64,000 bases of DNA, taken from IMG/VR virus record IMGVR_UViG_3300016480_000004; one strand, 5' to 3'. The notes beneath the pieces are model-generated. The model made no database searches, was not told the DNA's origin, and worked only from the letters and a program-made list of their open reading frames with translations. Below, piece after piece: positions 34,401-60,732 of this stretch (positions are counted from its first letter, which is position 1; each line of letters opens with the position of its first letter). Origin of the DNA: a virus. Taxonomy: Duplodnaviria; Heunggongvirae; Uroviricota; Caudoviricetes; Crassvirales. The position numbers and the translations under genes were made by a program.

Positions 34401-34451
34401 TGTTTTTTCTTTTAGTAAAACATTTATTTATTATCACATGACTGTACATAA

Positions 34452-34492
34452 AAAGAAAAGGCTACCAGTAATCAAACTGATAGCCTTTAAAA
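34452..34492 (-). terminator. Rho-independent terminator (minus strand) downstream of the Rsr / tRNA-like unit
   Basis: Hairpin GGCTACCAG...CTGATAGCC followed on the minus strand by TTTTCTTTTT. Confidence 0.5.
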
Positions 34493-34622
34493 GATAGAAT
34501 ATTCTACAACACCTTTGAAATTGTGTCCCTAAGGACATAAGTTGATTAAGAATCTACTCCTTTCTTACTTGCTAAATTTAATTTTCATATGAAGTAAGTG
34601 TTGTATATCACTAATCTTTGTG

Positions 34623-34780
34623 TGGAGGAAGCAGGATTCAAACCTGCAATAGAACTTATGCTACACCCTTGTGGAGTTCCTACTTACTATTATATAGGTT
34701 ATTCAAATTATAAGTTTGATGCATTAAATATATGTATAACGTTAATACATATATGCGTCTACCAATTCCGCCATTCCTCC
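34623..34780 (-). ncRNA. tRNA-like element (158 nt) with a 7-bp acceptor stem, Leu-type D-arm, T-arm, 10-bp 'anticodon' stem and ~85-nt insertion; Y-RNA-like candidate
   Basis: Minus strand: GGAGGAA-TG-GCG-GAATTGGTAGA-CGC ... GCAGG-TTTGAAT-CCTGC-TTCCTCC-A. Perfect 7-bp acceptor pairing. No canonical 5-bp/7-nt anticodon arm. Confidence 0.5.
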
Positions 34781-34940
34781 AATATTATTTATATTATTTA
34801 AAATTATTGTTTTACGAACAATAAAACGGTTACATATTCGAAGTAACACTCTATCTACGCAAGCAGATTTTCGCCACACTTTCTTAGGGTGTCTATGTAG
34901 TCTTACCTTTTCAGAGATAAATTTATCTCACCTACTGTTG

Positions 34941-35049
34941 TGAAAGTGGCAGGACTCGAACCTGCATTACACGAACCACTGGATTTCTAATCCTGTAAAG
35001 GGCAGAGTCGTGTACTCCCTTGTTGCGTCTACCATTCCGCCACACTTCC
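34941..35049 (-). ncRNA. tRNA-like element (109 nt) sharing the same D-arm and T-arm as the 34623..34780 element; Y-RNA-like candidate
   Basis: Minus strand: GGAAGTG-TG-GCG-GAATGGTAGA-CGC ... GCAGG-TTCGAGT-CCTGC-CACTTTC-A. Acceptor 6 WC + 1 GU. No canonical anticodon arm. Confidence 0.5.
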
Positions 35050-35284
35050 AAATCCAGCTTTTTCATTTTTAAGAGTTGAAAACTGGTTAAAGTATCTCTT
35101 TAAGATATGCCATAGAACATTTAACAGATTATCGTAGATAATTTAAAAGATTATTGATGTAAATCTGTAATACACTAATGGCATTATAAGTTAATGTTGT
35201 AAGAACAACTAACAGACTGTTTTTGGTAAACTATATCCATATTAGCTTGAAGTAAGTCTATTATACACTATACAACATTATATT

Positions 35285-36703: not shown

Positions 36704-36794
36704 AGAATTGTTTCTTTATTTAATTGACACTGCAAAGATATGTCAAAGGTTTCATATATACAAATATATTTCCACCTTTAACATTCTTTTTGTT

Positions 36795-38144: not shown

Positions 38145-38215
38145 TACCCCCAAGAAGACTCGAACCCGGATCTAAAGTTTAGGAAACTTTTGTTCTATCC
38201 ATTGAACTTGAGGGC
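38145..38215 (-). tRNA. tRNA-Arg(CCT)-like, minus strand, with a defective T-stem (possible pseudo-tRNA)
   Basis: Minus strand: acceptor GCCCTCA/TGGGGGT, D-stem TTC/GAA, anticodon arm AAAGT-TTCCTAA-ACTTT (CCT), T-loop TTCGAGT, but the T-stem has only about 3 pairs. Confidence 0.35.
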
Positions 38216-39261: not shown

Positions 39262-39727
39262 ATTCTAATCTTGGTTTGTTGTTTATGATTATAAACTGAT
39301 GCTTGTGAAGCATGTCATTGAGAGCATCAATATAATACTGTTGTTTATAAGTCTTACACTGGGACTGAATGGATAATTCCCACATATCTAAGACAGTATT
39401 ATATAATGATTCAGTCATCTCCACCTCTAAAGAAAACATATTGCAATCTTCATCCGTATAGTATAAGAAGTAGGATGTTTTACCATTAGTATCTGTTATA
39501 CTCTGCATCGCTTCAATATGCTTAGGACTAAATGATACAGTATCAGATTGTAATGACTCAATATGATTGTACTCTTTATCTATTATCTCTGTTGAAGGAG
39601 TATCTTCTGGGATATAGTTGAAATACTTGTATATACCAAAAGATAGTGTTATTGATATGATAACACATATCATCTTAGTTCCTTTCTTCATTCTCCTACT
39701 CCTTTCTGGTCTTTCATGAATAACCAT
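39248..39727 (-). CDS. Membrane-anchored hypothetical protein
   Basis: N-terminal TM helix. Confidence 0.4.
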   Translation of the reverse strand: MVIHERPERSRRMKKGTKMICVIISITLSFGIYKYFNYIPEDTPSTEIIDKEYNHIESLQSDTVSFSPKHIEAMQSITDTNGKTSYFLYYTDEDCNMFSLEVEMTESLYNTVLDMWELSIQSQCKTYKQQYYIDALNDMLHKHQFIIINNKPRLEYENL

Positions 39728-39788
39728 GCAAAGAATGCAATGACTGATATTACAGTCACTACATTCTCAGTATTTACCATGTCTTCCA

Positions 39789-40058
39789 TTATCTTTTTCT
39801 TTTATATTTAGTGAACTCTTTTCTTGCAATATCACCTTTCTTAAAGGTCTGCATTGTGATGCTATTGTCTGATGTAATTATTATTGACCATTCAAAAGCA
39901 TGTGTCCCAAACAGTGAAACTGTTCTACCTAAAGCGTCTGTAATTGTAGCTCTCAATGTGGAGTCACAATTCTCTCTTTTAAATTTTTTAGCCATGTGTT
40001 TATAAGTTAATTTGTTAATAATTGAAGCACATACTGGACTTGAACCAGTGACCTTCAC
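39789..40058 (-). CDS. Hypothetical protein
   Basis: ORF track. Confidence 0.4.
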   Translation of the reverse strand: MKVTGSSPVCASIINKLTYKHMAKKFKRENCDSTLRATITDALGRTVSLFGTHAFEWSIIITSDNSITMQTFKKGDIARKEFTKYKRKR

Positions 40059-40116
40059 ATAATAATTACCTTTAATTAATTATTATGTTATGCTCTAACC
40101 ACTGAGCTAATGTGCC
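40025..40116 (-). ncRNA. tRNA-like element (92 nt) with a canonical acceptor, D-arm (TAGCTCAGTGGTTAGAGCA) and T-arm, but a 10-bp AT stem with a 10-nt loop in place of the anticodon arm
   Basis: Minus strand: GGCACAT-TA-GCTC-AGTGGTTA-GAGC ... CATAATAATT/AATTATTATG stem ... ACTGG-TTCAAGT-CCAGT-ATGTGCT-T. Its 3' end overlaps the 39789..40058 CDS. Confidence 0.45.
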
Positions 40117-40879
40117 TTTGATTCCTGAGTTTATCTATTTGCAGAGGCGTATTCCTTAAATAGGCTGACGGTCTTTTTATTGTTCCTTTACTCGGGTAAT
40201 AGTTATAAGTCCCTCAGACTTGGCTACTAAGATATACCACCTGTTATAGTGTGTAATAAATTACTTTTCTACTCAGTGGACTCACTATTCAGCATTGCTT
40301 TCACTTATAATATTTCATCTTTCAGGTGGATGTTTTGTTAAGTCCCCTAAGTGGTCAACACATGAAACAGCATCACTCAAATCTTATTCTATTTCCTATA
40401 TTAGTCATTTCTTAACACATTTTAATGGCATGTGTCCTGTCAAATGCTACTATTATTCACATTTGATTGCCTAAATTAGCCCATTGGTATGTACATTATA
40501 TGTATATTTAGAGCATGAGATATGCTCAGTTAAACAATAAGATAATCTGTCCATAAAGATTAGAACAGTAAATATAGCTATTCTATTACTCCTCTTTTGT
40601 TCTTGATATGTCTTTGAATATGGCATAATATGGGAGGATTTGTTACAGACTAACACTCACTCTTCCACACTTTCACACTATCAACAAACATAGAAAGAAA
40701 GAGGATAGAAAGGACATTTAAGATACTATCCTTCATGCACTCTTTTATAATCTTCAAAGCATAAAGAAAGACTACCTAAAGCATACAACTTACTACATCT
40801 GAGCATTAAATCTACTCAACTACTATCTATACTCCAGAAGAGATATGTGATAATATGAGTAGATTGTATCTAACCAGGC

Positions 40880-41072
40880 ACTATTAATGCTCAGAGAAAT
40901 AGTATTGATGCTTGATTAGTGCATTTAAACTAACCTGCATCTGCCTTAAACTTACTATTATATGATACTTAATCTTTCAAAGGGTTTCATATAATAAAAT
41001 AAGTAGCACTCATACCTAATCTTTCAAGGGGTTTGAGAATACTATTAATGCTTAGAAGATACTATTAATGCT
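40880..41072. repeat. Direct repeats in a ~1-kb non-coding region: ACTATTAATGCT x3 (40880, 41041, 41061) and TAATCTTTCAA(A/G)GGGTTT x2 (40970, 41018)
   Basis: Exact 12-mer repeats and a 19-20-mer pair read directly from the sequence. Iteron-like. Confidence 0.6.
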
Positions 41073-41108
41073 CAAAAGAAAACAGAAAGAGGGCAAAGCC
41101 CTCCTTCA

Positions 41109-41429
41109 TTAGAATGTTGCCAGCACTGGTGCACTGCCTGTGCCTTCTTCATGCAGCAACCAGAATGTGCTACCATCAGGTGCTTCAACCTCGCTTACCA
41201 TTGGGTGTGCAGGAATACCCTTCACTGCAACTGCCCCTGTCTTAGAGCCGAAGGTGAAGAACAGTTTGTTGGTCTTAGGATTCTGTTTTACTTGAATCTT
41301 GTCTACTCGTTGAGCTGCTTTAAACTGTTCAACTGTCAATGTCTCGTGGAATGTTAATTGATTGTCCATAATGTAAAATGTTAAATTGTTAATGAATAAA
41401 TTGTTTGACCAACGGGGGTAGAACCCCAC
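41109..41429 (-). CDS. Hypothetical protein (likely start at the internal Met, MDNQ...)
   Basis: ORF track. Confidence 0.4.
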   Translation of the reverse strand: MGFYPRWSNNLFINNLTFYIMDNQLTFHETLTVEQFKAAQRVDKIQVKQNPKTNKLFFTFGSKTGAVAVKGIPAHPMVSEVEAPDGSTFWLLHEEGTGSAPVLATF

Positions 41430-41485
41430 TGGCTAAGTGATGGGGGAGGTGGGGTTGGTGTATATCTCACTCATGACTATGAATC

Positions 41486-41540
41486 AAAAAAAAAAAATTA
41501 AATTATTTGGATATTATCTATTATATACTTATCTTTGACC
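41486..41540 (+). promoter_or_regulatory. Promoter P1: A12 tract, then TTTG (41506) - N20 - TATCTTTG (41530-41537), for gene 41554
   Basis: Matches the Bacteroidota sigma-AB-type consensus TTTG-N19-21-TAnnTTTG. Upstream A-tract (UP-like). Confidence 0.55.
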
Positions 41541-41553
41541 AAAAATTAAAAGT

Positions 41554-41859
41554 ATGAAAAAGAAGAGTTATAATTTATTTGGGAGTACTTGGATAGTACA
41601 GTTTGTAGATGAAGTAGTTGATGAAAATGGTAGGTGGATATTTGGGGAAACAGAGAGTCCTTCAAGGGTAATAACTATTAGCACAAAGAAGCCTGATGGT
41701 AGTAAACTTTCAAAGGATGAAATTGAACTTACTGCCCTACATGAAATAGTACATTCTATATTCCAAACTGGACAATATATGAGTTGTGATAATGATGAAC
41801 CATTAGTAGAATGGACTGCAAGATGTTTAAAAGCCTTAAAAGAACAGCATATTATATAG
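41554..41859 (+). CDS. Small HExxH zinc-metallopeptidase-like protein
   Basis: HEIVH motif. Confidence 0.45.
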   Translation: MKKKSYNLFGSTWIVQFVDEVVDENGRWIFGETESPSRVITISTKKPDGSKLSKDEIELTALHEIVHSIFQTGQYMSCDNDEPLVEWTARCLKALKEQHII

Positions 41860-42237
41860 TCAATAGTTAAACTTTTATAAATAATAATCCAAGATTTTGA
41901 TATGTCATTTATTTTTTGTATGTTTGCACCATAATAATGAGACTACCTATTAGTAGATACATTGGTTCAGCCAACATGGGAAAGTAAAGGATACCATTAG
42001 AAGGGCACAGGTAATGAACCCTTGAGATAACAAAAAGAGTGAAAACTAATAATATATAAACGGGTGTATCTGCTGGTCTATAGGAGTAAGAATCTGGTCA
42101 ATCCAGTCTAATGCAGTGAGAAATGTCTGTAGGGTCTCTTATTATATGAAACTAAAGTTTTACTCCTTATTTACTTTAACTAATTAAGGATAAAATAGGA
42201 GGGAGGGATAACTATACCCAATTTAAAATGAAATAAT

Positions 42238-42387
42238 ATGAAGACAATTAAGAAGATTAAGATTGAAACTATAAATGTAGTTCAATGTGATGGTGCTGTA
42301 TGTATATCTATGAATCATAATGATGATAGGTATTATGCACAAGGAGTTAGTTCAAGAATATTAAATGTAAAGAGATATAAGGTATGA
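42238..42387 (+). CDS. Small ORF (49 aa), overlaps the start of the next gene
   Basis: Manual translation MKTIKKIKIETINVVQCDG...; below the ORF-track size cut-off. Confidence 0.25.
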   Translation: MKTIKKIKIETINVVQCDGAVCISMNHNDDRYYAQGVSSRILNVKRYKV

Positions 42388-42797
42388 ATAAGCTAAAAAG
42401 TAGTTTACTTTGGCTATGGCAATTACCACAGAATTTATGTGGTATAATCTATAGGTCTATATCTGAAGATAATAGAATAAGTGTTGTAGAGACTTATGAC
42501 TCAAGAAGTGTAGGTGCTAAAGTATATTTACAAAAAGCTAATGGTGGCATATCTCTTGGGAAATATATCTTTATTAATCAAGATTACATTGACGAAGAGA
42601 TAGTTATAAAACATGAATGTGGTCATGTAAAACAGAGTAAGATACTTGGTCCTTTATATTTATTGGTTATTGGTATTCCCTCTATACTACATGCTTGGCT
42701 TAATAATTATATTGGGTGTTGTTGGAAGAATGGAGAATATAATTATTATCATTTTTATACTGAAAAATGGGCTAATAAGCTAATGGGTATTGAGTGA
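42384..42797 (+). CDS. HExxH zinc-metallopeptidase-like protein (ImmA/IrrE-like?) with a C-terminal hydrophobic segment
   Basis: HECGH motif. Confidence 0.45.
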   Translation: MNKLKSSLLWLWQLPQNLCGIIYRSISEDNRISVVETYDSRSVGAKVYLQKANGGISLGKYIFINQDYIDEEIVIKHECGHVKQSKILGPLYLLVIGIPSILHAWLNNYIGCCWKNGEYNYYHFYTEKWANKLMGIE

Positions 42798-42865
42798 AGA
42801 TAATTATTCAGCTTATTATCTCAATTCACTTCTGGAGTATTTTCATACTATCTTGAAAATAATTA

Positions 42866-42908
42866 GTGAAAAATTTGCATATATCAAATATTTGACTTAT
42901 CTTTGTAT
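42866..42908 (+). promoter_or_regulatory. Promoter P3: TTTG (42874-77) - N20 - TATCTTTG (42898-42905), driving the tRNA array
   Basis: Same motif and exact 20-nt spacing as P1, P2 and P4. Confidence 0.55.
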
Positions 42909-42930
42909 CATAATTAGAAGATGAGAACAT

Positions 42931-43002
42931 TGTTCCATAGTATAATGGTTATTACACCTGATTTTGGCTCAAGTAATGTAGGTTCAATTCCTGCTGGAAC
43001 AA
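42931..43002 (+). tRNA. tRNA-Gln(TTG)
   Basis: Acceptor TGTTCCA/TGGAACA, T-arm GTAGG-TTCAATT-CCTGC, anticodon loop TTTTGGC. One C-A mismatch in the anticodon stem. Confidence 0.55.
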
Positions 43003-43010
43003 CTATAAAT

Positions 43011-43081
43011 GCCCTGTTGGTGTAATGGAAGCACAAGACTCTTCTAAAGTTTTAGATAAGGTTCGAGTCCTTAATGGGGTA
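43011..43081 (+). tRNA. tRNA-Arg(TCT)
   Basis: D-stem GTGT/GCAC, anticodon arm AGACT-CTTCTAA-AGTTT, T-arm TAAGG-TTCGAGT-CCTTA. Acceptor has 3 GU pairs. Confidence 0.5.
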
Positions 43082-43163
43082 CTTTTGAAGGTGGAATTTT
43101 TTTTTTGTTTCATGATTGTTAAATATTGGACTATCTGGTCTGTGAAGATAGGATAGTCAAAAT

Positions 43164-43236
43164 GGTGGGTTAGTATAGTGGTTAGTACACAAGGTTTTCA
43201 ACCTTGCAGAGAGGGGTTCAAATCCCCTACCCATTA
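43164..43236 (+). tRNA. tRNA-Glu(TTC)
   Basis: D-arm GTAT-AGTGGTTA-GTAC, anticodon arm CAAGG-TTTTCAA-CCTTG, T-arm AGGGG-TTCAAAT-CCCCT. Confidence 0.65.
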
Positions 43237-43241
43237 CAAAT

Positions 43242-43315
43242 AGTCTATTGGTGTAGAGGTTTAACATGTCACACTGTCAATGTGGAGATGGAGGGTTCAA
43301 TTCCCTCATAGACTG
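43242..43315 (+). tRNA. tRNA-Asp(GTC)
   Basis: Perfect acceptor AGTCTAT/ATAGACT, anticodon loop CTGTCAA, T-arm GAGGG-TTCAATT-CCCTC. Confidence 0.65.
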
Positions 43316-43427
43316 CAAAGTAACTATGCAAGAAGTTACTGTTAAGTAACTTGCAATACTTAACACCCTTGATTCTGAAAAATTTTTGAATGCATTAAGA
43401 AAATATAATCAATGTCAATCAAGGTTT

Positions 43428-43500
43428 AGCGAGTTAGAGAAGTAGAGTTCTCATCTCCTGCATAAGGGGAAGACCATTGGTGCAAATCCAATACTCGCAA
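43428..43500 (+). pseudogene. Degenerate tRNA-like sequence (CAT-containing anticodon loop TGCATAA with G33; T-loop TGCAAAT; A1-A72 mismatch)
   Basis: Cloverleaf can be drawn, but the conserved U33 and T54-psi55 positions are not matched. Confidence 0.3.
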
Positions 43501-43504
43501 CTAT

Positions 43505-43596
43505 GGAAGAATAAGCCTAATTGCTAAGGCAGTAGTCTTGAAAACTACTAGTAGTCATTTAAAAGTGATGTGTGAGTTGGAGTCTCACTTCTTCCT
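43505..43596 (+). tRNA. tRNA-Ser(TGA), type II (long variable arm)
   Basis: Perfect acceptor GGAAGAA/TTCTTCC, anticodon arm GTAGT-CTTGAAA-ACTAC, T-arm GTGAG-TTGGAGT-CTCAC. Confidence 0.55.
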
Positions 43597-43600
43597 CAAT

Positions 43601-43687
43601 GGGGGATTAACCCTAATGGTAAGGGAGCAGTTTGCTAAACTGTCAGTAGTCTTAAAGGATGTATAGGTTCAAATCCTATATCCTCCG
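43601..43687 (+). tRNA. tRNA-Ser(GCT), type II
   Basis: Acceptor GGGGGAT/ATCCTCC (1 GU), anticodon arm GCAGT-TTGCTAA-ACTGT, T-arm ATAGG-TTCAAAT-CCTAT. Confidence 0.55.
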
Positions 43688-43693
43688 CAATAT

Positions 43694-43767
43694 AGAGTAG
43701 TTGGGTAATTGGTCAACCCCCTGCATTTGGGATGCAGAAATTGGAAGTTCGAGTCTTCTCTACTCTA
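43694..43767 (+). tRNA. tRNA-Pro(TGG)
   Basis: Perfect acceptor AGAGTAG/CTACTCT, D-stem GGGT/ACCC, anticodon arm CTGCA-TTTGGGA-TGCAG. Confidence 0.65.
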
Positions 43768-43773
43768 CAAATG

Positions 43774-43846
43774 GGTCATGTAGTGTAAATGGATAACACA
43801 CCACTTTTGCAAAGTGGAGTTGGGGTTCAAGTCCCACATGTATCCA
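43774..43846 (+). tRNA. tRNA-Ala(TGC)-like; anticodon arm clear, acceptor and T-stem not resolved
   Basis: CCACT-TTTGCAA-AGTGG anticodon arm and a GGGGTTCAAGTCCC T-loop region, but no clean acceptor pairing could be drawn by hand. Confidence 0.3.
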
Positions 43847-43918
43847 CTGTTTCGTGTTTTCATAATGTTTGTTTTTTTTTTTTTTACAGGTTTTGGGCAC
43901 ACCTTAAGTGCCCTATAC

Positions 43919-43992
43919 TGCTCCTTAGTTCAGTGGTTTAGAATAGCACTTTTACAAAGTGAAGGTCATTAGTTCGATTCTAATAGGAGCAA
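43919..43992 (+). tRNA. tRNA-Val(TAC)
   Basis: Perfect acceptor TGCTCCT/AGGAGCA, anticodon loop TTTACAA, T-arm ATTAG-TTCGATT-CTAAT. Confidence 0.6.
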
Positions 43993-44001
43993 CATTTAAT
44001 T

Positions 44002-44072
44002 GGGAGTATAGCTCGAAGGTCGAGCACTTGACTGTTAATCAATAGGTGAAAGTTCGATTCTTTCTATTCCCG
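44002..44072 (+). tRNA. tRNA-Asn(GTT)
   Basis: Acceptor GGGAGTA/TATTCCC, D-stem GCTC/GAGC, anticodon loop CTGTTAA, T-arm GAAAG-TTCGATT-CTTTC. Confidence 0.65.
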
Positions 44073-44093
44073 CAGATTTAAAGAGTAAAAGTC

Positions 44094-44426
44094 ATGAAAG
44101 AAATTAGAAGTAAAAGGATTGTTGAGGATAGAAGTAAGGTGAAAGCAGTTCACTTTAAATATCCTGAAATGATGAATGAAAATGCTCAGAAAGAGATTAA
44201 GAATGATTATAATGAATTATTATCTCTTGAAGAGAAACTCTATAATGCAAGAGAGGTTGTTAGAGAGTGTGAAAAGAAACTTGCAGAAAAGAAAAAGAAG
44301 TTTGAAGAAAAGACTTTGTTATGTACATTAGAGTTTGAAACAAGGGAGAAAGAAGTAGTAAATTATAAATCTCAGGTTCTATTCAAAGGTATGGGTAATG
44401 ATACCTTAGGTCATTATAGTACATAA
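44094..44426 (+). CDS. Hypothetical coiled-coil protein embedded in the tRNA array
   Basis: ORF track. Confidence 0.4.
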   Translation: MKEIRSKRIVEDRSKVKAVHFKYPEMMNENAQKEIKNDYNELLSLEEKLYNAREVVRECEKKLAEKKKKFEEKTLLCTLEFETREKEVVNYKSQVLFKGMGNDTLGHYST

Positions 44427-44429
44427 TAT

Positions 44430-44500
44430 GTATCCTTAGTTTAATGGTAGAATGATGGTCTCCAAAACCATAGGTAGTAGTTCGATTCTATTAGGGTATG
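44430..44500 (+). tRNA. tRNA-Trp(CCA)
   Basis: Anticodon arm ATGGT-CTCCAAA-ACCAT (canonical Trp loop), T-arm AGTAG-TTCGATT-CTATT. Acceptor has 2 GU pairs. Confidence 0.55.
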
Positions 44501-44583
44501 CTACATTGAGTTGTATCTCCTCTGCCTGATAAGCAGTTGAAAGAGTAATTGGTCACATGTGGGTTCAATTCCCACCTTCTCAA
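44501..44583 (+). tRNA. tRNA-like, unresolved (Ile-GAT-like anticodon hairpin plus a good T-arm GTGGG-TTCAATT-CCCAC, poor acceptor)
   Basis: T-arm and a CTGATAA loop hairpin are present, but a standard cloverleaf with a paired acceptor could not be drawn. Confidence 0.25.
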
Positions 44584-44590
44584 CTTATAT

Positions 44591-44663
44591 TCTGATATAC
44601 TTCAACAGGTAGAAGGCTGCTCTCATAAGGCAGTAGTTATAGGTTCAAGTCCTATTATCAGAA
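44591..44663 (+). tRNA. tRNA-Met(CAT)
   Basis: Perfect acceptor TCTGATA/TATCAGA, D-stem CTTC/GAAG, anticodon arm CTGCT-CTCATAA-GGCAG. Confidence 0.6.
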
Positions 44664-44664
44664 C

Positions 44665-44734
44665 TGTGTAGTGCTATAGGTATAGAGGATAGACTGTGAA
44701 TCTATTTTATAGGGTTCGATTCCCTACTACACCC
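44665..44734 (+). tRNA. tRNA-His(GTG)
   Basis: Anticodon arm ATAGA-CTGTGAA-TCTAT, T-arm TAGGG-TTCGATT-CCCTA. Acceptor has 6 bp plus a 1:72 mismatch. Short D-loop. Confidence 0.5.
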
Positions 44735-44749
44735 TTTTATTTTAAAAAA

Positions 44750-44823
44750 GCTGAGGTAGCATAATTGGTAAATGCAGATGGCTTATATCCATCAGACAGT
44801 GGGTTCAAATCCTACTCTCAGTA
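44750..44823 (+). tRNA. tRNA-Ile(TAT) (AUA decoder)
   Basis: D-stem GCAT/ATGC, anticodon arm GATGG-CTTATAT-CCATC, T-arm GTGGG-TTCAAAT-CCTAC. Confidence 0.55.
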
Positions 44824-44928
44824 CTATATGCAGAGGTAGACAGGGAAGTTTAATTGAAAAAGATTACTGAGTAGCCAAGAGTTGTAGGTGCACAAGACTT
44901 TTGAAGAGTAAAAGTAATTGAAGTAGAG

Positions 44929-45001
44929 TATATTTCTGGTGTGGTCTGTCAAAGCAAGGCAGGTACAACCTTGTACAGTGGTTCAACTCCACTCCTCTGA
45001 G
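44929..45001 (+). pseudogene. tRNA 3'-half-like fragment (T-arm AGTGG-TTCAACT-CCACT + CCTCTGA); no matching 5' acceptor found
   Basis: Only the T-arm and 3' acceptor strand are recognisable. Upstream sequence 44824-44976 forms other hairpins. Confidence 0.25.
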
Positions 45002-45005
45002 CTAC

Positions 45006-45078
45006 CTCCAGTTGTCTGAATGGTTGAGGTCCCAGTCTGCAAAACTGTGGTATGGGAGTTCAAGTCTCCCACTGGAGT
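45006..45078 (+). tRNA. tRNA-Cys(GCA)
   Basis: Perfect acceptor CTCCAGT/ACTGGAG, anticodon loop CTGCAAA, T-arm GGGAG-TTCAAGT-CTCCC. Confidence 0.55.
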
Positions 45079-45088
45079 CTTATTAAAT

Positions 45089-45161
45089 GCCTCTATAGCT
45101 GAATGGTTAAAGCTGCTCCCTCTTAAGGAGAAGATTCTAAGTTCGATTCTTAGTGGAGGTA
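45089..45161 (+). tRNA. tRNA-Lys(CTT)
   Basis: Anticodon loop CTCTTAA, T-arm CTAAG-TTCGATT-CTTAG. Confidence 0.6.
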
Positions 45162-45166
45162 CATAC

Positions 45167-45238
45167 TCCCCTATAGCAGACAGGTGTAGGCAATAGACTT
45201 TTAATCTATGAGGTGAGGTTCAATTCCTCATGGGGGAA
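45167..45238 (+). tRNA. tRNA-Lys(TTT)
   Basis: Anticodon arm ATAGA-CTTTTAA-TCTAT, T-arm TGAGG-TTCAATT-CCTCA. Confidence 0.55.
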
Positions 45239-45248
45239 CAAATATAAT

Positions 45249-45343
45249 GGGTACATAACATCAGCAGACTGTAAATCTGCCCTCCTTTATCAAATTGATG
45301 TAATGGACTTTGGAGTAGGGGAGTTCGAGTCTCTCTGTGCCCA
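45249..45343 (+). tRNA. tRNA-Tyr(GTA)-like, atypical (95 nt)
   Basis: Acceptor GGGTACA/TGTGCCC, T-arm GGGAG-TTCGAGT-CTCTC, and an anticodon arm GCAGA-CTGTAAA-TCTGC identical to E. coli tRNA-Tyr. It sits only 8 nt after the acceptor, with no room for a D-arm, and is followed by ~38 extra nt. Confidence 0.3.
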
Positions 45344-45352
45344 CTTATTAAT

Positions 45353-45425
45353 GGAAATTTAGCAAAGGTGGTATATGCGGGGGACTGAAAATCCTTAGAT
45401 AATGGTTCAACTCCATTAGTTTCCA
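45353..45425 (+). tRNA. tRNA-Phe(GAA)
   Basis: Acceptor GGAAATT/AGTTTCC, anticodon loop CTGAAAA, T-arm AATGG-TTCAACT-CCATT. Confidence 0.65.
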
Positions 45426-45439
45426 CAAAACAATGAATT

Positions 45440-45607
45440 ATGGATAAGGTTTTATATAATTGGTTAGAAAAACAATTCTATCATGATAATCACAAGAGGT
45501 ATCACAAGTACTTTAAGGAGTGGATAGATAATGTAACTGATTCTCAAATTCAATATTTTGAGAAGCAAAGAATAAATGTTCTAACTGGGGCTATGATTCA
45601 ACACTAA
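45440..45607 (+). CDS. Small ORF (55 aa) inside the tRNA array
   Basis: Manual translation MDKVLYNWLEKQFYHDNHKRYHKYFKEWIDNVTDSQIQYFEKQRINVLTGAMIQH. Confidence 0.3.
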   Translation: MDKVLYNWLEKQFYHDNHKRYHKYFKEWIDNVTDSQIQYFEKQRINVLTGAMIQH

Positions 45608-45608
45608 T

Positions 45609-45683
45609 GCCCTCATGGTGAAATGGTTAAGACACGTCTGATTTAGGCTCAGAAGGCTGTAGGTTCGACTCCTACTGAGGGTA
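45609..45683 (+). tRNA. tRNA-Leu(TAG), class-I-like (short 5-nt variable loop, 12-nt D-loop, G37, A73)
   Basis: Acceptor GCCCTCA/TGAGGGT, anticodon arm TCTGA-TTTAGGC-TCAGA, T-arm GTAGG-TTCGACT-CCTAC. Confidence 0.5.
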
Positions 45684-45684
45684 C

Positions 45685-45745
45685 AAAAAAAAAAAAATAT
45701 GCAGATTTACTTGCATATATAAATTATAATACATATCTTTGTAAC
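45685..45745 (+). promoter_or_regulatory. Promoter P2: A13 tract, then TTG (45711-13) - N20 - TATCTTTG (45734-41), for gene 45763
   Basis: Same motif and spacing as P1, P3 and P4. Confidence 0.55.
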
Positions 45746-45762
45746 ATCAAAATTAAAACAGT

Positions 45763-46212
45763 ATGATAGATACATTTGGAGATAATCTATTAGAAGGTTT
45801 TAAACATGAGTCTCCTTCATATGAAGGAAATCAATTTAAAGACTTTCTATGTGTGCTTGAAGGATTCAAGACTAAGTTTAAGAATCTTCACTGGTCAGCA
45901 TATAGTAATTCAATCCATGTAAGGGTTGATGAACTTATTGATAAAATATCTGATTATCAAGACATTCTTGCAGAAGAAATTCAAGGTATTCAGGGACAGT
46001 TTGAACCAAACTTCCTTAAGGGAACTAACTTTAATTTCACTTGTCCTCATGAAACAATTGGTAATCTGATAAGTAGAACTGATACTTTTTATTCTAAATT
46101 ACCTCAGTCTTCTGACTTTGCTGGAGTTAGAAGTGAGTGTGAAGCCTTCATTACTAATCTTCACAAGTATAGGTACTTGTTTGATTTATGTAGAAGAGGT
46201 GCAATGGATTAA
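45763..46212 (+). CDS. Hypothetical protein embedded in the tRNA array
   Basis: ORF track. Confidence 0.45.
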   Translation: MIDTFGDNLLEGFKHESPSYEGNQFKDFLCVLEGFKTKFKNLHWSAYSNSIHVRVDELIDKISDYQDILAEEIQGIQGQFEPNFLKGTNFNFTCPHETIGNLISRTDTFYSKLPQSSDFAGVRSECEAFITNLHKYRYLFDLCRRGAMD

Positions 46213-46215
46213 GAT

Positions 46216-46290
46216 AGCCCCATAGTCCAATGGTCAAGAGACAGTAGATTTAAGCTCTACCCAGTGAGGGTTCGACTCCCTCTGGGGTTA
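46216..46290 (+). tRNA. tRNA-Leu(TAA), class-I-like (short variable loop, 12-nt D-loop, G37)
   Basis: Acceptor AGCCCCA/TGGGGTT, anticodon arm GTAGA-TTTAAGC-TCTAC, T-arm GAGGG-TTCGACT-CCCTC. Confidence 0.5.
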
Positions 46291-46294
46291 CTAT

Positions 46295-46366
46295 GCTTCT
46301 TTAGTATAAAGGTTATTACTCCTCTCTTGTAAAGAGGAAATGTAAGTTCGATTCTTACAAGAAGCT
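46295..46366 (+). tRNA. tRNA-Thr(TGT)
   Basis: Perfect acceptor GCTTCTT/AAGAAGC, anticodon arm CCTCT-CTTGTAA-AGAGG, T-arm GTAAG-TTCGATT-CTTAC. Confidence 0.65.
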
Positions 46367-46371
46367 CAAAT

Positions 46372-46443
46372 GCAGGTGTAGCACAATGGTCAGTGTGAGA
46401 GCCTTCCAAGCTCAGGATGAGAGTTCGATTCTCTCCACCTGCT
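46372..46443 (+). tRNA. tRNA-Gly(TCC)
   Basis: Perfect acceptor GCAGGTG/CACCTGC, D-arm GCAC-AATGGTCA-GTGT, anticodon loop CTTCCAA, T-arm GAGAG-TTCGATT-CTCTC. Confidence 0.65.
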
Positions 46444-46449
46444 CTAAAT

Positions 46450-46536
46450 CGCGAGGTAGTGTAATGGCAACATGTGTGGCTCATAACCACAAGAAGCAGT
46501 AATACTGTGTTGGAAGTTCGAGTCTTCCCTTCGCAA
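46450..46536 (+). tRNA. tRNA-Met-like (CAT) with an unpaired C1-A72 and a ~20-nt variable arm (87 nt)
   Basis: Anticodon arm TGTGG-CTCATAA-CCACA, T-arm GGAAG-TTCGAGT-CTTCC, acceptor CGCGAGG/CTTCGCA with a 1:72 C-A mismatch (an initiator-like trait). Long variable region with a CAGT/ACTG stem. Confidence 0.45.
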
Positions 46537-46555
46537 CTAAGTTAAAGTAAATAAT

Positions 46556-46708
46556 ATGAAAGAGGAGAAGACAATCACTTGTATTATAGGCTCTACAGTT
46601 AGAGAAGTAATCAAGCAAGCTCAAGAGCTTGAAATTAAAAAAGAGGATATAGTAAACATGTTTCCTTTAGGAGGACAGATTTACTTGATATTTTATAAGT
46701 AAAAATAG
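46556..46708 (+). CDS. Small ORF (50 aa)
   Basis: Manual translation MKEEKTITCIIGSTVREVIKQAQELEIKKEDIVNMFPLGGQIYLIFYK. Confidence 0.3.
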
Positions 46709-46716
46709 CTGGCATT

Positions 46717-46965
46717 ATGGAAGAGAAGAAGACAAAAGAACCTCAGTACAATGAACCTAAGATGATGTTACATCTTGCTATTTATAGTGCTGTTGGTAAA
46801 TACAAGAGTATTAAAAGAGCTATCAAAAAAGGGTATGTAACCTCTTGGGGAGAGGAAGTCCCAAAGAGACCTTTCAATAATAGAAAGAGGACCCGTGGTA
46901 GGGAGTTACAGATTACTAAAGAGAAGATTTATGGAGAACTTAAGTATAGAAATCAAGCCAGTTGA
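46717..46965 (+). CDS. Hypothetical basic protein
   Basis: ORF track. Confidence 0.45.
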   Translation: MEEKKTKEPQYNEPKMMLHLAIYSAVGKYKSIKRAIKKGYVTSWGEEVPKRPFNNRKRTRGRELQITKEKIYGELKYRNQAS

Positions 46966-47164
46966 GCTTGAAACTCCCAAGGAAGAATATAACAATATAC
47001 CAATTGTATATTGTAAGCATTGTCTATCATTAGCAATAAGAAACTCAGATGGCATAGATTACTGTGACAAGTGTGGTGGAACTGAAACTGGTGAGGCACA
47101 CATACATGAATGGGAGAAAATGTATGAGCAAAAGTATGGTGGAAAATATCTAACAGAAAAATAA
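46895..47164 (+). CDS. Hypothetical zinc-ribbon protein (CxxC...CxxC)
   Basis: CKHC...CDKCGG. Confidence 0.45.
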   Translation: MVGSYRLLKRRFMENLSIEIKPVELETPKEEYNNIPIVYCKHCLSLAIRNSDGIDYCDKCGGTETGEAHIHEWEKMYEQKYGGKYLTEK

Positions 47165-60695: not shown

Positions 60696-60732
60696 ATTAT
60701 TGTATATATGAGTTATTTTTTGTACGTTTGTA
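60696..60732 (+). promoter_or_regulatory. Promoter P5: TTG (60700-02) - N20 - TACGTTTG (60723-30), for gene 60749
   Basis: TAnnTTTG -7 box with exact 20-nt spacing to TTG. Confidence 0.45.

What the first reader, a model, noticed from the sequence alone, without database searches (positions are those of the whole stretch)
42931..46536. Large tRNA array (~27 tRNA or tRNA-like genes) with several non-canonical members
By manual folding, about 20 convincing tRNAs were found: Gln-TTG, Arg-TCT, Glu-TTC, Asp-GTC, Ser-TGA, Ser-GCT, Pro-TGG, Val-TAC, Asn-GTT, Trp-CCA, Met-CAT, His-GTG, Ile-TAT, Cys-GCA, Lys-CTT, Lys-TTT, Phe-GAA, Leu-TAG, Leu-TAA, Thr-TGT and Gly-TCC. Six more are degenerate or atypical. 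Notable points:
(i) Both Leu tRNAs have short variable loops (class-I-like) with 12-nt D-loops.
(ii) A Met-like tRNA (46450-46536) combines a C1-A72 mismatch with a ~20-nt variable arm.
(iii) A 95-nt element (45249-45343) has an anticodon arm identical to E. coli tRNA-Tyr but no room for a D-arm.
(iv) tRNA-Ile has anticodon UAU, not the usual lysidine-CAU system, which would help decode AUA in this AT-rich genome.
(v) Small ORFs are interspersed at 44094-44426, 45440-45607 and 45763-46212.
No suppressor (CTA/TCA/TTA) anticodons were found and none is needed: all long ORFs are open in the standard code.
Basis: seen in the sequence. Interest (0 to 1): 0.55.

Follow-up and report, generated by a model that had tools for sequence, protein, structure and literature searches.

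The report
Phage tRNA array with rearranged tRNAs
This is the known tRNA gene cluster of a crAss-like gut phage, but two members dismissed as "degenerate" (isoleucine and tyrosine) belong to large, conserved phage tRNA families that have every normal tRNA part in a swapped order, and standard tRNA finders miss them.

Summary
ARAGORN and Rfam both tRNAs at 42931-46537, covering 19 amino acids plus an initiator-like Met, with no Tyr and no suppressors. The window is a Kehishuvirus (ΦcrAss001-like, about 90% identity), so the array itself is already known.

The new result concerns two unannotated gap elements, 44507-44583 (anticodon GAU) and 45249-45343 (GUA). Neither is degenerate.
- Each has a normal acceptor stem, anticodon arm and T arm.
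- The "D stem" forms between the segment just after U8-A9 and a segment 3' of the anticodon arm. A D-loop-like A-R-Y-Y-G-G follows that second segment.
- The Tyr type also keeps a variable-arm helix that crosses this stem, which makes a pseudoknot.

Covariation in 33 and 75 distinct relatives supports every helix (97% paired; 0/500 shuffles). The Ile skeleton recurs with Arg anticodons, and there the nucleotide after GG is A in 22/22 cases (the ArgRS A20 determinant), against U in 152/154 Ile. Swapping the two internal segments in silico makes ARAGORN/178 and 68/75; in native order it calls none. The elements sit in tRNA arrays and are distributed complementarily to canonical Tyr and Ile(GAU) genes.

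I conclude they are functional, topologically rearranged tRNAs. Aminoacylation is inferred, not shown.

The parts
42875..42907 (+). Promoter-like motif TTGCATATAT-N13-TATCTTTGTA, 24 nt upstream of the first tRNA
   Evidence: Four copies in the window against 0.07 expected. It contains TAnnTTTG, the Bacteroides -7 consensus (from my own knowledge). Function is inferred.
42931..43003 (+). tRNA-Gln(TTG)
   Evidence: ARAGORN; Rfam 58.2 bits
43011..43082 (+). tRNA-Arg(TCT)
43164..43237 (+). tRNA-Glu(TTC)
43242..43316 (+). tRNA-Asp(GTC)
43317..43426 (+). Conserved structured spacer with three hairpins, function unknown
   Evidence: Conserved in cr126_1 and cr106_1, with a compensatory change (A6). 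Fold z-score -2.5.
43429..43499 (+). Cloverleaf tRNA-like gene with anticodon loop TGCATAA (CAT), D loop without GG and T loop TGCAAAT
   Evidence: Fold z-score -3.5. Acceptor and T stems keep pairing through compensatory changes in two other genera, but the anticodon loop is not conserved. Neither ARAGORN nor Rfam calls it. It shares its D region and T loop with an ARAGORN-called Met tRNA in L443.
43505..43597 (+). tRNA-Ser(TGA), class II
   Evidence: Absent from ΦcrAss001 and tikkala.
43601..43688 (+). tRNA-Ser(GCT), class II
43694..43768 (+). tRNA-Pro(TGG)
43773..43845 (+). tRNA-Ala(TGC) with an irregular acceptor stem
   Evidence: ARAGORN gives 3 unpaired acceptor positions and a 6-nt T loop. 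The Rfam match covers only model positions 4-67. If the G at 43773 is included and one bulge is allowed, an 8-bp stem with G3.U70 forms (read from the sequence). The acceptor-stem sequence is the same in four relatives.
43919..43993 (+). tRNA-Val(TAC)
44002..44073 (+). tRNA-Asn(GTT)
44094..44426 (+). ORF of 110 aa, equivalent to ΦcrAss001 Gp6 (hypothetical)
   Evidence: No Pfam match.
44430..44501 (+). tRNA-Trp(CCA)
44507..44583 (+). Rearranged tRNA-Ile(GAU). Acceptor 44507-13/44576-82; U8 A9 at 44514-15; helix X 44517-19 with 44543-45; anticodon arm 44521-37 (GAT at 44528-30); 5-nt spacer 44538-42; D-loop-like TAATTGGTCACAT at 44546-58; T arm 44559-75; discriminator A at 44583
   Evidence: Model R1 scores 98.4 bits. 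Structure supported in 33 relatives: 97.3% of cells paired, helix X 100% paired with CG/AU/UA swaps. RNAalifold predicts the same structure independently. Not called by ARAGORN or Rfam. It replaces the canonical tRNA-Ile(GAT) of ΦcrAss001 in the same slot.
44591..44664 (+). tRNA-Met(CAT), elongator type
44666..44734 (+). tRNA-His(GTG), 69 nt, short D arm
   Evidence: Rfam 36 bits. It differs from the 77-nt His gene of tikkala and ΦcrAss001.
44750..44824 (+). tRNA-Ile(TAT)
44825..45005 (+). 181-nt insertion with a T-arm-like 3' end, unresolved
   Evidence: Absent from tikkala. No match in the phage records or in the fetched loci. Only a weak tRNA-Sec match, E = 4.6. Fold z-score +0.8.
45006..45079 (+). 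tRNA-Cys(GCA)
45089..45162 (+). tRNA-Lys(CTT)
45167..45239 (+). tRNA-Lys(TTT)
45249..45343 (+). Rearranged, pseudoknotted tRNA-Tyr(GUA). Acceptor 45249-55/45336-42; U8 A9 at 45256-57; helix X 45258-63 with 45296-301; anticodon arm 45264-80 (GTA at 45271-73); helix Y (variable-arm-like) 45282-85 with 45312-15; D-loop-like AATGGACT at 45302-09; T arm 45319-35; discriminator A at 45343
   Evidence: 75 distinct relatives: 97.2% of cells paired; helix X 94.7% paired with 3 covarying pairs; helix Y 100% paired with 3 covarying pairs. 100% identical in four Kehishuvirus genomes. Unannotated in 31 GenBank records. It is the only Tyr decoder in the window.
45353..45426 (+). tRNA-Phe(GAA)
45440..45607 (+). 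ORF of 55 aa, hypothetical
   Evidence: No Pfam match.
45609..45684 (+). tRNA-Leu(TAG), class-I-like (5-nt variable loop), A73
   Evidence: The ΦcrAss001 homologue is a 90-nt class II gene.
45711..45743 (+). Second copy of the promoter-like motif
45763..46212 (+). ORF of 149 aa, annotated as DpsA-like in relatives (ΦcrAss001 Gp7)
   Evidence: Only a sub-threshold Pfam DUF5856 match.
46216..46291 (+). tRNA-Leu(TAA), class-I-like, A73
46295..46367 (+). tRNA-Thr(TGT)
46372..46444 (+). tRNA-Gly(TCC)
46450..46537 (+). Initiator-like tRNA-Met(CAT) with C1xA72, G2-C71, C3-G70, loop CTCATAA, and a roughly 20-nt variable arm
   Evidence: Identical in tikkala and ΦcrAss001. Tikkala annotates it tRNA-fMet. 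Similar long-arm initiator-like genes recur in other phage loci.

Best explanation
The region is the tRNA operon of a Kehishuvirus (ΦcrAss001-like crAss phage). It lies on one strand and has at least two phage or host-type promoters. It supplies a nearly complete decoder set tuned to the phage's A/T-rich codons.

Two of its members, Ile(GAU) at 44507-44583 and Tyr(GUA) at 45249-45343, are tRNAs with a rearranged core.
- The strand that normally forms the 3' half of the D stem directly follows U8-A9 and runs into the anticodon stem.
- The strand that normally forms the 5' half of the D stem, together with the D loop (A14, R15, G18 G19, position 20), lies after the anticodon arm and leads into the T stem.
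- The anticodon arm is therefore nested inside the 'D stem'.
- The stack of D stem on anticodon stem and the D-loop/T-loop elbow can still form, so an L-shape is preserved with a different chain connectivity.
- In the Tyr type the class-II variable-arm helix is kept and crosses the D stem, giving a pseudoknot.

I infer that host IleRS and TyrRS charge these RNAs and that they decode AUY and UAY. Related Arg versions would likewise be charged by ArgRS.

The helices, the conserved core nucleotides, the isotype-specific identity nucleotides and the complementary distribution are shown here. Transcription, processing, charging and ribosomal use are inferred.

The advantage of this topology is unknown. 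My leading guess is escape from nucleases that recognise tRNA architecture, whether host defence nucleases or the phage's own.
For: **Helices**
- Ile family: 19 pairs, 97.3% of cells paired, 15 pairs with double changes, 0/500 shuffles as good, slid controls 36-45%. RNAalifold predicts the identical structure.
- Tyr family: 27 pairs, 97.2% paired, 22 pairs with double changes. Both X and Y are supported.

**Core nucleotides**
- U8, A9, 'A14', G18 G19, the T loop TTCRA, A73 and C74 are invariant or nearly so, including columns that the search patterns did not fix.
- The '15/48' pair covaries: A-U 104, G-C 35.

**Identity nucleotides**
- Position after GG: A in 22/22 Arg-anticodon members and U in 152/154 Ile members.
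- Discriminator: A in 154/154 Ile members.
- These match the bacterial Arg (A20, A/G73) and Ile (A73, U20) determinants listed in PMC9976931.
- The Tyr type keeps A73 and a variable-arm helix.

**All canonical parts are present**
- Swapping the two internal segments makes ARAGORN/178 (with the expected anticodons) and 68/75. Native order gives 0/178 and 0/75.

**Context**
- The elements are on the same strand as the nearest canonical tRNA in 114/114 and 66/66 cases, with median gaps of 42 and 106 nt.

**Complementary distribution in 143 distinct arrays**
- Tyr: both types 5, rearranged only 46, canonical only 50, neither 42 (p = 9e-8).
- Ile-GAU: 6, 70, 40, 27 (p = 1.5e-11).
- ΦcrAss001 and cr112_1 hold a canonical Ile(GAT) in the very slot where this window holds the rearranged one.

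**Need**
- Tyr is 5.1% of the window's codons, and no other Tyr tRNA is present.
Against: - There is no expression, processing or aminoacylation data.
- The window's Ile copy has two U.U mismatches in its acceptor stem (5-68 and 6-67). A mismatch at 6-67 is, however, common in the family (10/33).
- G1-C72 is rare in the Ile family.
- The Tyr pseudoknot requires linkers of 10 and 2-5 nt to span the core, and I could not model this in 3D.
- The families were collected with sequence patterns, which forces some of the invariance and biases the locus sample.
- Covariation proves the pairings but not the order of segments in the mature RNA.
Confidence: 0.75

Rival explanations
1. The two elements are tRNA mimics, for example decoys or inhibitors for tRNA-targeting defence nucleases or for tRNA-modifying or tRNA-binding proteins. 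On this reading they are not substrates for aminoacylation and translation.
For: - They escape tRNA models: ARAGORN/235 and Rfam shows nothing even at E <= 10.
- The chain topology is unusual.
- Mismatches at acceptor pair 6-67 are frequent.
- Phage tRNAs are known players in conflicts with PtuAB, AriB and P2-OLD (PMC12445682).
- In Streptomyces phages the Ile element sits next to an RlaP-family RNA-repair nucleotidyltransferase.
Against: - A decoy would not need isotype-matched identity nucleotides outside the anticodon (A20 with Arg anticodons, U20 and A73 with Ile).
- A decoy would not need a conserved A73-C74 end.
- A decoy would not be expected to alternate with the canonical isoacceptor in the same slot.
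- The Tyr element is the only candidate Tyr decoder in an otherwise complete set.
Confidence: 0.15
2. The genes are internally permuted, and the transcript is cut and religated into a canonical cloverleaf order. This would be analogous to the circularly permuted tRNA genes of Cyanidioschyzon.
For: An in-silico swap of the two internal segments yields canonical tRNAs in 178/178 and 68/75 cases. Covariation cannot distinguish the two orders.
Against: - There is no extra sequence. The Ile type is 77 nt, the length of a mature tRNA.
- An internal swap needs three breaks and three ligations, and no known pathway does this.
- There are no intron-like or bulge-helix-bulge features.
- The native order already allows the same stacked helices and the same elbow.
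Confidence: 0.03
3. The elements are decaying tRNA pseudogenes or chance tRNA-like sequences in the spacers.
For: The tRNA finders do not call them.
Against: - There are hundreds of distinct relatives in unrelated phages, with compensatory changes in every helix.
- The Bacteroides crAss-like phage copy and the Streptomyces phage copies are 80-86% identical.
- The Tyr element is 100% conserved in four genomes whose flanking sequences differ.
Confidence: 0.02

Closest known systems
tRNA array of Bacteroides phage ΦcrAss001 and other Kehishuvirus genomes (Steigviridae)
   Same: About 90% nucleotide identity and the same gene order, including the DpsA-like ORF, Gp6 and the initiator-like Met. The published genome reports 25 tRNAs for 17 amino acids (PMC6235969).
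   Different: - This window carries the rearranged Ile(GAU) where ΦcrAss001 has a canonical one.
- It has a class-I-like Leu(TAG) where ΦcrAss001 has a class II gene.
- It has an extra Ser(TGA), the CAT element, Cys, and a 181-nt insertion.
- It lacks the ferredoxin-thioredoxin-reductase ORF, the HNH ORF and Gly(GCC).
Canonical cloverleaf tRNA (Rfam RF00005)
   Same: It shares the 7-bp acceptor stem, discriminator, U8, the 5-bp anticodon stem with a 7-nt loop (U33, R37), the 5-bp T stem with a TTCRA loop, the G18G19-type motif and the overall length.
   Different: The two strands of the D stem lie on either side of the anticodon arm, and the D loop lies between the anticodon arm and the T arm. 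The RF00005 model and ARAGORN do not detect the elements.
D-armless mitochondrial tRNAs, such as metazoan mt-tRNA-Ser(AGY/GCU) and nematode mt-tRNAs (PMC7609411, PMC4013460)
   Same: There is no D hairpin between the acceptor and anticodon stems, only a short 5' connector.
   Different: The mitochondrial tRNAs have lost the D stem and the G18G19 elbow contact and are shortened. Here both are retained in a new position and the total length is normal. The hosts here are bacteria with standard aaRS, EF-Tu and ribosomes.
Circularly permuted tRNA genes (Cyanidioschyzon merolae) and split tRNAs of Archaea
   Same: tRNA segments are encoded in a non-canonical order.
   Different: In those cases the 5' and 3' halves are exchanged and processing restores a canonical mature tRNA. 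Here two internal segments are exchanged, both termini are normal, and no restoring pathway is known.
Pseudoknotted tRNA-like structures of plant RNA viruses, and the tRNA-like domain of tmRNA
   Same: They mimic the L-shape with a non-cloverleaf connectivity. Some use a pseudoknot and are aminoacylated.
   Different: Those are 3'-terminal domains of larger RNAs, with the pseudoknot in the acceptor arm. They are not stand-alone decoders with a canonical anticodon loop sitting in tRNA operons.
allo-tRNAs and tRNA-Sec (8/4 and 9/3 or 9/4 acceptor/T configurations; PMC5389517)
   Same: They are non-canonical tRNAs discovered by metagenome mining, some of them in phages.
   Different: They change helix lengths within a normal cloverleaf order. 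Here the helix lengths are normal (7/5) and the order is changed.

Membership tests
tRNA (cloverleaf, RF00005) - tested on elements 44507-44583 and 45249-45343 | 7-bp acceptor stem closed by a discriminator, with a 3' end able to take CCA | tested here: met
   The acceptor helices covary: 7/7 pairs show double changes in both families. A73 is invariant and C74 is invariant in the Ile-family alignment and nearly so in the Tyr-family alignment. The window's Ile copy has 5 of 7 pairs.
tRNA (cloverleaf, RF00005) - tested on elements 44507-44583 and 45249-45343 | Anticodon arm: 5-bp stem and a 7-nt loop with U33 and a purine at 37 | tested here: met
   The loops are CTGATAA and CTGTAAA. The stems covary. 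In the Ile type, pair 27-43 is U.U.
tRNA (cloverleaf, RF00005) - tested on elements 44507-44583 and 45249-45343 | T arm with a TΨC-type loop | tested here: met
   5-bp stems that covary, with the loop TTCRAnY.
tRNA (cloverleaf, RF00005) - tested on elements 44507-44583 and 45249-45343 | D hairpin (10-25) lying between position 9 and the anticodon arm | tested here: not met
   Only 7-8 nt separate the acceptor and anticodon stems. The partner strand and the D-loop motif lie 3' of the anticodon arm.
tRNA (cloverleaf, RF00005) - tested on elements 44507-44583 and 45249-45343 | Detection by the family model at its gathering score | tested here: not met
   There is no RF00005 match even at E <= 10. 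ARAGORN/139 and 0/96.
tRNA (cloverleaf, RF00005) - tested on elements 44507-44583 and 45249-45343 | Aminoacylation and use on the ribosome | not testable with these tools
   Only indirect evidence: identity nucleotides and the complementary distribution.
Kehishuvirus / ΦcrAss001 tRNA array | Nucleotide similarity and synteny with the annotated array | tested here: met
   90-92% identity over about 70% of 42500-47000, with the same order of tRNAs and ORFs.
D-armless mitochondrial-type tRNA | Loss of the D stem and of the G18G19/T-loop contact, with shortened length | tested here: not met
   Helix X covaries, the TA-R-N(1-3)-GG motif is present in 80/84 independently anchored hits, and the length is 77 nt.
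Bacterial initiator tRNA (element 46450-46537) | C1xA72 mismatch with G2-C71 and C3-G70 (formylation determinants) | tested here: met
   CGCGAGG...CTTCGCA-A.
Bacterial initiator tRNA (element 46450-46537) | Three consecutive G-C pairs at 29-41, 30-40 and 31-39; a short variable loop | tested here: not met
   The stem is TGTGG/CCACA, so 29-41 is U-A, and the variable arm is about 20 nt.
Class II bacterial tRNA-Leu (elements 45609-45684 and 46216-46291) | Long variable arm | tested here: not met
   The variable loops are 5 nt. A73 and a 3-bp D stem with a large D loop are present. E. coli LeuRS does not need the long arm (PMC9976931).

The most novel reading that the evidence does not exclude
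Phages of very different hosts (Bacteroides crAss-like phages, Streptomyces phages, jumbo phages, and many metagenomic contigs) carry a previously unrecognised structural class of functional tRNAs. In this class the D-stem 5' strand plus the D loop has been transposed to the 3' side of the anticodon arm. It occurs for Ile(GAU/UAU), for Arg(UCU/ACG/UCG/CCU), and, as a pseudoknot with a retained variable arm, for Tyr(GUA). Current tRNA finders do not see these genes, so phage tRNA repertoires are systematically under-counted. The topology may have been selected because it defeats nucleases or other factors that recognise the canonical tRNA core.
Probability: 0.55. Interest if true: 0.9.

Novelty: new variant of a known kind. 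Interest (0 to 1): 0.8.

Why it matters
If these RNAs are charged and used, the cloverleaf chain order is not required for a tRNA to work with bacterial RNase P, CCA-adding enzyme, aaRS, EF-Tu and ribosomes. Only the three-dimensional arrangement of the helices and the elbow would matter.

That would have several consequences.
- It gives a natural test set for how IleRS, ArgRS and TyrRS read the core, for example A20 presented from a different strand.
- It explains 'missing' isoacceptors in phage tRNA sets, such as Tyr in ΦcrAss001.
- It shows that tRNA annotation of phage genomes and viromes misses a whole class: 0 of 235 instances called here, and none annotated as Tyr in 31 GenBank records.
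- It offers new orthogonal tRNA scaffolds.
- It opens a testable link between tRNA architecture and the phage-host conflict over tRNA cleavage.

The array itself, taken alone, is ordinary and already described.

Tried and rejected
- **Alternative fold for the Tyr element.** I considered an ordinary long variable arm with an inner hairpin ATCA-AAT-TGAT and a single-stranded 5' linker. I rejected it because the AACAAAT segment is nearly invariant and the hairpin breaks whenever X3' begins with C, G or A, whereas X pairs 12-51 and 13-50 covary with the 5' linker.
- **Loose pattern scans.** Only L087 and L070 were useful.
- **Rfam at E <= 10**. It gave no family for any gap element. The tmRNA hit at 44559-44575 is just the T arm, and the 'Plastid-ycf2' hits are reverse-strand tRNAs.
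- **Sigma-70 promoter scan**. It found no more sites than in shuffles and does not suit Bacteroides or phage promoters. A repeated motif found by eye was confirmed instead.
- **The 181-nt insertion (44825-45005) and the minus-strand element (34941-35049).** Neither has relatives anywhere I could search. They are left unresolved.
- **Theta or HDV-like ribozymes next to the tRNAs** (lead from 10.1101/2023.06.13.544163). There is no Rfam HDV-type hit in the spacers, and I did not pursue it further.
- **Streptomyces-phage nucleotidyltransferase next to the Ile element.** It is RlaP-like but has no counterpart in this window, so it is not part of the feature.
- **Literature.** Nine full-text searches and two reviews of tRNA structure and identity (PMC7609411, PMC9976931) gave no description of this architecture. 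Subscription journals are not covered, so this is absence of evidence only.

Full report
**1. What is at the coordinates**

ARAGORN finds 23 tRNA genes, all on the + strand, between 42931 and 46537. The Rfam tRNA model passes its gathering score at the same 23 places. They serve 19 amino acids plus an initiator-like Met. There is no Tyr gene and no CTA, TCA or TTA anticodon.

- Both Leu genes are 76 nt with 5-nt variable loops, 3-bp D stems with large loops, and A73.
- The gene at 46450-46537 has C1xA72, G2-C71 and C3-G70, plus a variable arm of about 20 nt.

The three small ORFs exist. None has a Pfam match above threshold.

Four spacers hold further elements that neither tool reports even at E <= 10: 43429-43499, 44507-44583, 44825-45005 and 45249-45343.

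**2. Where the window comes from**

The region is 90-92% identical to Bacteroides phages PhiCrAssBcn and to Kehishuvirus 'tikkala', and it is syntenic with ΦcrAss001 and cr112_1. The ΦcrAss001 paper reports 25 tRNA genes for 17 amino acids, found with ARAGORN. It also reports a phage G+C of 34.7% against 42.5% for the host (PMC6235969). So the array as such is known.

Codon use in 37 long ORFs of the window fits the anticodon set.
- ATA is 35% of Ile codons.
- AGA is 67% of Arg codons.
- TTA is 34% of Leu codons.
- Tyr is 5.1% of all codons, 81% of them TAT.

**3. The GAU element (44507-44583)**

A blastn search with this stretch gave an unexpected result. About 77 Streptomyces phages (Stanwilliamsviridae) carry an 80-86% identical 73-82-nt stretch. 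In the records listed it is unannotated, except one that calls it tRNA-Leu.

A pattern scan of IMG/VR found it in 67 contigs. Thirty-three distinct copies align without a single gap (A4). The structure I read from them has four parts:
- a 7-bp acceptor stem;
- a 3-bp helix X (columns 11-13 with 37-39) that encloses the anticodon arm;
- a 4-bp anticodon stem plus a U.U pair;
- a 5-bp T stem.

This structure is 97.3% paired. Fifteen of 19 pairs show changes on both sides, 0 of 500 shuffles do as well, and slid controls give 36-45% pairing. Helix X is 100% paired and swaps between CG, AU and UA. RNAalifold, given only the alignment, returns exactly the same structure.

After X3' comes T-A-A-Y-Y-G-G-T-N-N-C-A-Y and then the T stem. 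Read with canonical numbering, X3' corresponds to positions 10-13. The following A-R-Y-Y-G-G-U corresponds to A14, R15, 16, 17, G18, G19 and 20. X5' corresponds to 22-25 and runs through one nucleotide ('26') into the anticodon stem. U8 and A9 are invariant.

The stack of helix X (3 pairs plus a U.U), one nucleotide, and a 5-layer anticodon stem has the same 10 layers as a D stem, position 26 and an anticodon stem. Total length to the discriminator is 77 nt. This geometric reading is my inference from textbook tRNA structure.

**4. The GUA element (45249-45343)**

The element is 100% identical in the window, tikkala, ΦcrAss001 and cr112_1, although the flanks differ; ΦcrAss001 has a 57-nt insertion right after it. 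Nothing is annotated at this place in 31 GenBank records.

A scan of metagenome contigs returned 114 loci, giving 75 distinct sequences (A5). Five helices are supported: 97.2% of cells paired, 22 of 27 pairs with double changes, and 0/500 shuffles as good on cells paired, cells with double changes, further pair types and the covariation score (19/500 for the count of pairs with double changes).
- Helix X (45258-63 with 45296-301) is 94.7% paired. Its two columns that the search pattern left free (12-51 and 13-50) covary with the 5' linker.
- Helix Y (45282-85 with 45312-15) is 100% paired, with three covarying pairs. Y starts right after the anticodon stem and ends three nucleotides before the T stem, where the long variable arm of a bacterial tRNA-Tyr sits.

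The order along the chain is X5', Y5', X3', Y3', so the two helices cross and the core is a pseudoknot. X3' is again followed by A-R-T-G-G-A-C-T.

**5. It is a class, not two oddities**

A generalised descriptor run over all 609 fetched loci (5 Mb) finds 178 distinct sequences with the Ile-type skeleton.

| Anticodon | Distinct sequences |
|---|---|
| GAT | 86 |
| TAT | 68 |
| Arg (TCT 12, ACG 7, TCG 2, CCT 1) | 22 |
| CAT | 2 |

- **Position after GG.** It is A in 22/22 Arg members and T in 152/154 Ile members.
- **Discriminator.** It is A in 154/154 Ile members and mostly G or A in Arg members.
- **Match to known determinants.** These are the bacterial identity determinants listed by Giegé and Eriani (Arg: A20, A/G73; Ile: A73, U20/D20; PMC9976931). 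The relocated segment therefore behaves as the D loop, and the RNAs look built for the cognate synthetases.
- **Levitt-like pair.** The nucleotide at '15' and the one just before the T stem covary like a Levitt pair: A-U 104, G-C 35, G-G 10, others 5.
- **Independent anchor.** A scan anchored only on the 5' half still found the TA-R-N(1-3)-GG motif in 80 of 84 hits.
- **Model separation.** A covariance model of the Ile family separates members (45-106 bits) from canonical tRNAs (32 bits or less).

The simplest summary is an experiment in silico. Exchanging the two internal segments, [X5' + anticodon arm + spacer] and [X3' + D loop], makes ARAGORN/178 as Ile, Arg or Met tRNAs with the expected anticodons, and 68/75 as tRNA-Tyr. 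In native order it/178 and 0/75.

**6. Context and distribution**

Every instance lies on the same strand as the nearest canonical tRNA (114/114 and 66/66), at median distances of 42 and 106 nt.

In 143 distinct arrays with at least 10 canonical tRNAs, the rearranged and canonical genes for the same anticodon avoid each other.

| Anticodon | Both | Rearranged only | Canonical only | Neither | Fisher p |
|---|---|---|---|---|---|
| Tyr (GUA) | 5 | 46 | 50 | 42 | 9e-8 |
| Ile (GAU) | 6 | 70 | 40 | 27 | 1.5e-11 |

Within Kehishuvirus the exchange is visible at one site. Between tRNA-Trp and tRNA-Met, ΦcrAss001 and cr112_1 have a canonical tRNA-Ile(GAT). This window and tikkala have the rearranged one, with conserved flanks (A2).

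The Ile pattern occurs only 6 times in one genome from each of 185,579 bacterial and archaeal species. At least two of those contigs are jumbo-phage contigs also present in IMG/VR. The class therefore looks phage-restricted. The locus sample is biased, because loci were fetched for containing one of the types, so these counts are comparative and not frequencies.

**7.

- **(i) Class-I-like Leu.** This is real and variable within the genus. ΦcrAss001 Leu(TAG) is a 90-nt class II gene, the window and tikkala have the 76-nt form, and cr112_1 is a chimera. It is not rare in phages: 80 of 243 distinct ARAGORN Leu genes in my loci are 79 nt or shorter, against 5/140 for Ser and 6/92 for Tyr. E. coli LeuRS needs A73 and the elbow contacts but not the long arm (PMC9976931), so charging is plausible.
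- **(ii) Initiator-like Met with a long variable arm.** It is identical in three Kehishuvirus genomes. Similar genes (CGCGGG...CCCGCA-A, loop CUCAUAA) recur in unrelated phage loci. It meets the formylation determinants but has only two of the three G-C pairs in the anticodon stem.
- **(iv) Ile(UAU).** Confirmed, and a common phage trait: canonical Ile(TAT) genes are present in 25 of the 83 loci that carry the rearranged Ile type, and 68 of the 178 rearranged sequences themselves have the TAT anticodon.
- **(v) The ORFs.** They correspond to ΦcrAss001 Gp6, a hypothetical protein, and the 'DpsA-like' Gp7.
- **The CAT element (43429-43499).** It is conserved in two other genera, with compensatory changes in the acceptor and T stems, but its anticodon loop varies and its elbow is non-canonical. 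Its role is open.
- **tRNA-Ala.** It has an irregular acceptor stem. G3.U70 forms only if a bulge is allowed.
- **The 181-nt insertion (44825-45005).** It has no relatives and stays unexplained.

**8. How it most likely works**

Shown here:
- the helices;
- the conserved core and identity nucleotides;
- the operon context;
- the complementary distribution.

Inferred:
- the array is transcribed from promoters such as the repeated TTGCATATAT-N13-TATCTTTGTA motif at 42875 and 45711;
- the transcript is cut by host RNase P and 3' nucleases;
- CCA is added (the genes encode A73-C74 but usually not CCA);
- the rearranged Ile and Tyr RNAs fold into an L-shape, in which helix X stacks on the anticodon stem and the relocated GG meets the T loop;
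- they are charged by host IleRS and TyrRS and then decode AUY and UAY.

Why this topology persists is unknown. Phage tRNAs are known to rescue cells from tRNA nucleases: tRNA-Tyr from retron-Eco7 PtuAB, tRNA-Lys from PARIS AriB and tRNA-Thr from P2-OLD. They can also resist cleavage through structural changes in the anticodon stem (PMC12445682). Escape from a nuclease or other factor that reads the canonical core is therefore my favoured but untested idea, at roughly one chance in three. Neutral spread of a once-arisen rearrangement that works well enough is the alternative.

**9. Rivals**

- **Non-translational mimic or decoy.** This remains possible (0.15), but it does not explain the isotype-matched position 20 and discriminator, or the slot-for-slot exchange with canonical genes.
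- **RNA-level reordering into a cloverleaf.** This is unlikely (0.03), because there is no spare sequence and no known pathway.
- **Pseudogene or chance.** This is excluded by the covariation.

**10. Novelty and limits**

The closest known things are canonical tRNAs, D-armless mitochondrial tRNAs, permuted tRNA genes, allo-tRNAs and viral tRNA-like structures. None has this arrangement.

Nine full-text searches and two specialist reviews gave no description of it. That library lacks most subscription journals, so prior description cannot be excluded.

No tool here gives RNA 3D models, expression data or charging data. tRNAscan-SE and R-scape were not available. Some invariant columns were fixed by the search patterns, although the key covarying columns, U8/A9, A73/C74, position 20 and the 5' partner strands were not.

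I rate the array itself as already known. I rate the rearranged tRNAs as a new variant of a known kind, with high interest.

Noticed in passing
window 40025-40116 (- strand): tRNA-like gene with canonical acceptor, D and T arms, in which the anticodon arm is replaced by a 12-bp A/T hairpin with an 8-nt loop (ARAGORN 'Ile-aat', 93 nt; Rfam 48 bits; fold z-score -4.2). Homologues in other Kehishuvirus contigs (L189, L114) keep the tRNA body but carry a different, longer insert at the same place.
   Followed up: partly
window 38145-38215 (- strand): Rfam tRNA hit (33 bits) that ARAGORN does not call. The anticodon loop TTCCTAA would make it Arg(CCU), and AGG is 29% of the phage's Arg codons. The T stem is imperfect. 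It is conserved at 81-92% in relatives.
   Followed up: partly
window 34941-35049 (- strand), within an ORF-poor stretch 34400-35285: 109-nt tRNA-like element (Rfam 40 bits) with good acceptor, D and T arms but no recognisable anticodon loop. It has no relatives in the phage records or in any fetched locus.
   Followed up: partly
window 42875-42907, 45711-45743, 60700-60732 (+) and 36731-36763 (-): Repeated promoter-like motif TTGCATATAT-N13-TATCTTTGTA, with 4 copies against 0.07 expected. It contains a Bacteroides-type TAnnTTTG. Two copies head the two halves of the tRNA array.
   Followed up: partly
window 43317-43426: A spacer of about 110 nt after tRNA-Asp with three hairpins. It is conserved across three crAss-like genera (Kehishuvirus, Kolpuevirus, Mahstovirus) with at least one compensatory change. 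No Rfam family matches.
   Followed up: partly
window 39500-42500: GC skew and gene orientation switch here, from the - strand block to the + strand block. The tRNA array opens the + strand block, as in ΦcrAss001's two oppositely oriented genome halves.
   Followed up: no
L002:960-1481 and L003:973-1494 (Streptomyces phages EGole and Genie2): In Streptomyces phages the rearranged Ile gene lies directly downstream of a 173-aa nucleotidyltransferase of the RlaP family (PF10127, 'RNA repair pathway DNA polymerase beta family'). This hints at a tRNA-repair context.
   Followed up: partly
fetched phage loci (5 Mb), e.g. L367, L386, L343, L467: Initiator-like CAT tRNAs with C1xA72 and a long variable arm recur in unrelated phages (among 23 distinct CAT tRNAs of 80 nt or more). 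One third of the phage tRNA-Leu genes in the sample are class-I-like.
   Followed up: partly
L005:3276-3351 (cr112_1): The Leu(TAG) gene is a chimera. Its 5' half matches the ΦcrAss001 class II gene and its 3' half matches this window's class-I-like gene, which leaves a mismatched acceptor stem. This is evidence of recombination between tRNA cassettes inside the array.
   Followed up: no
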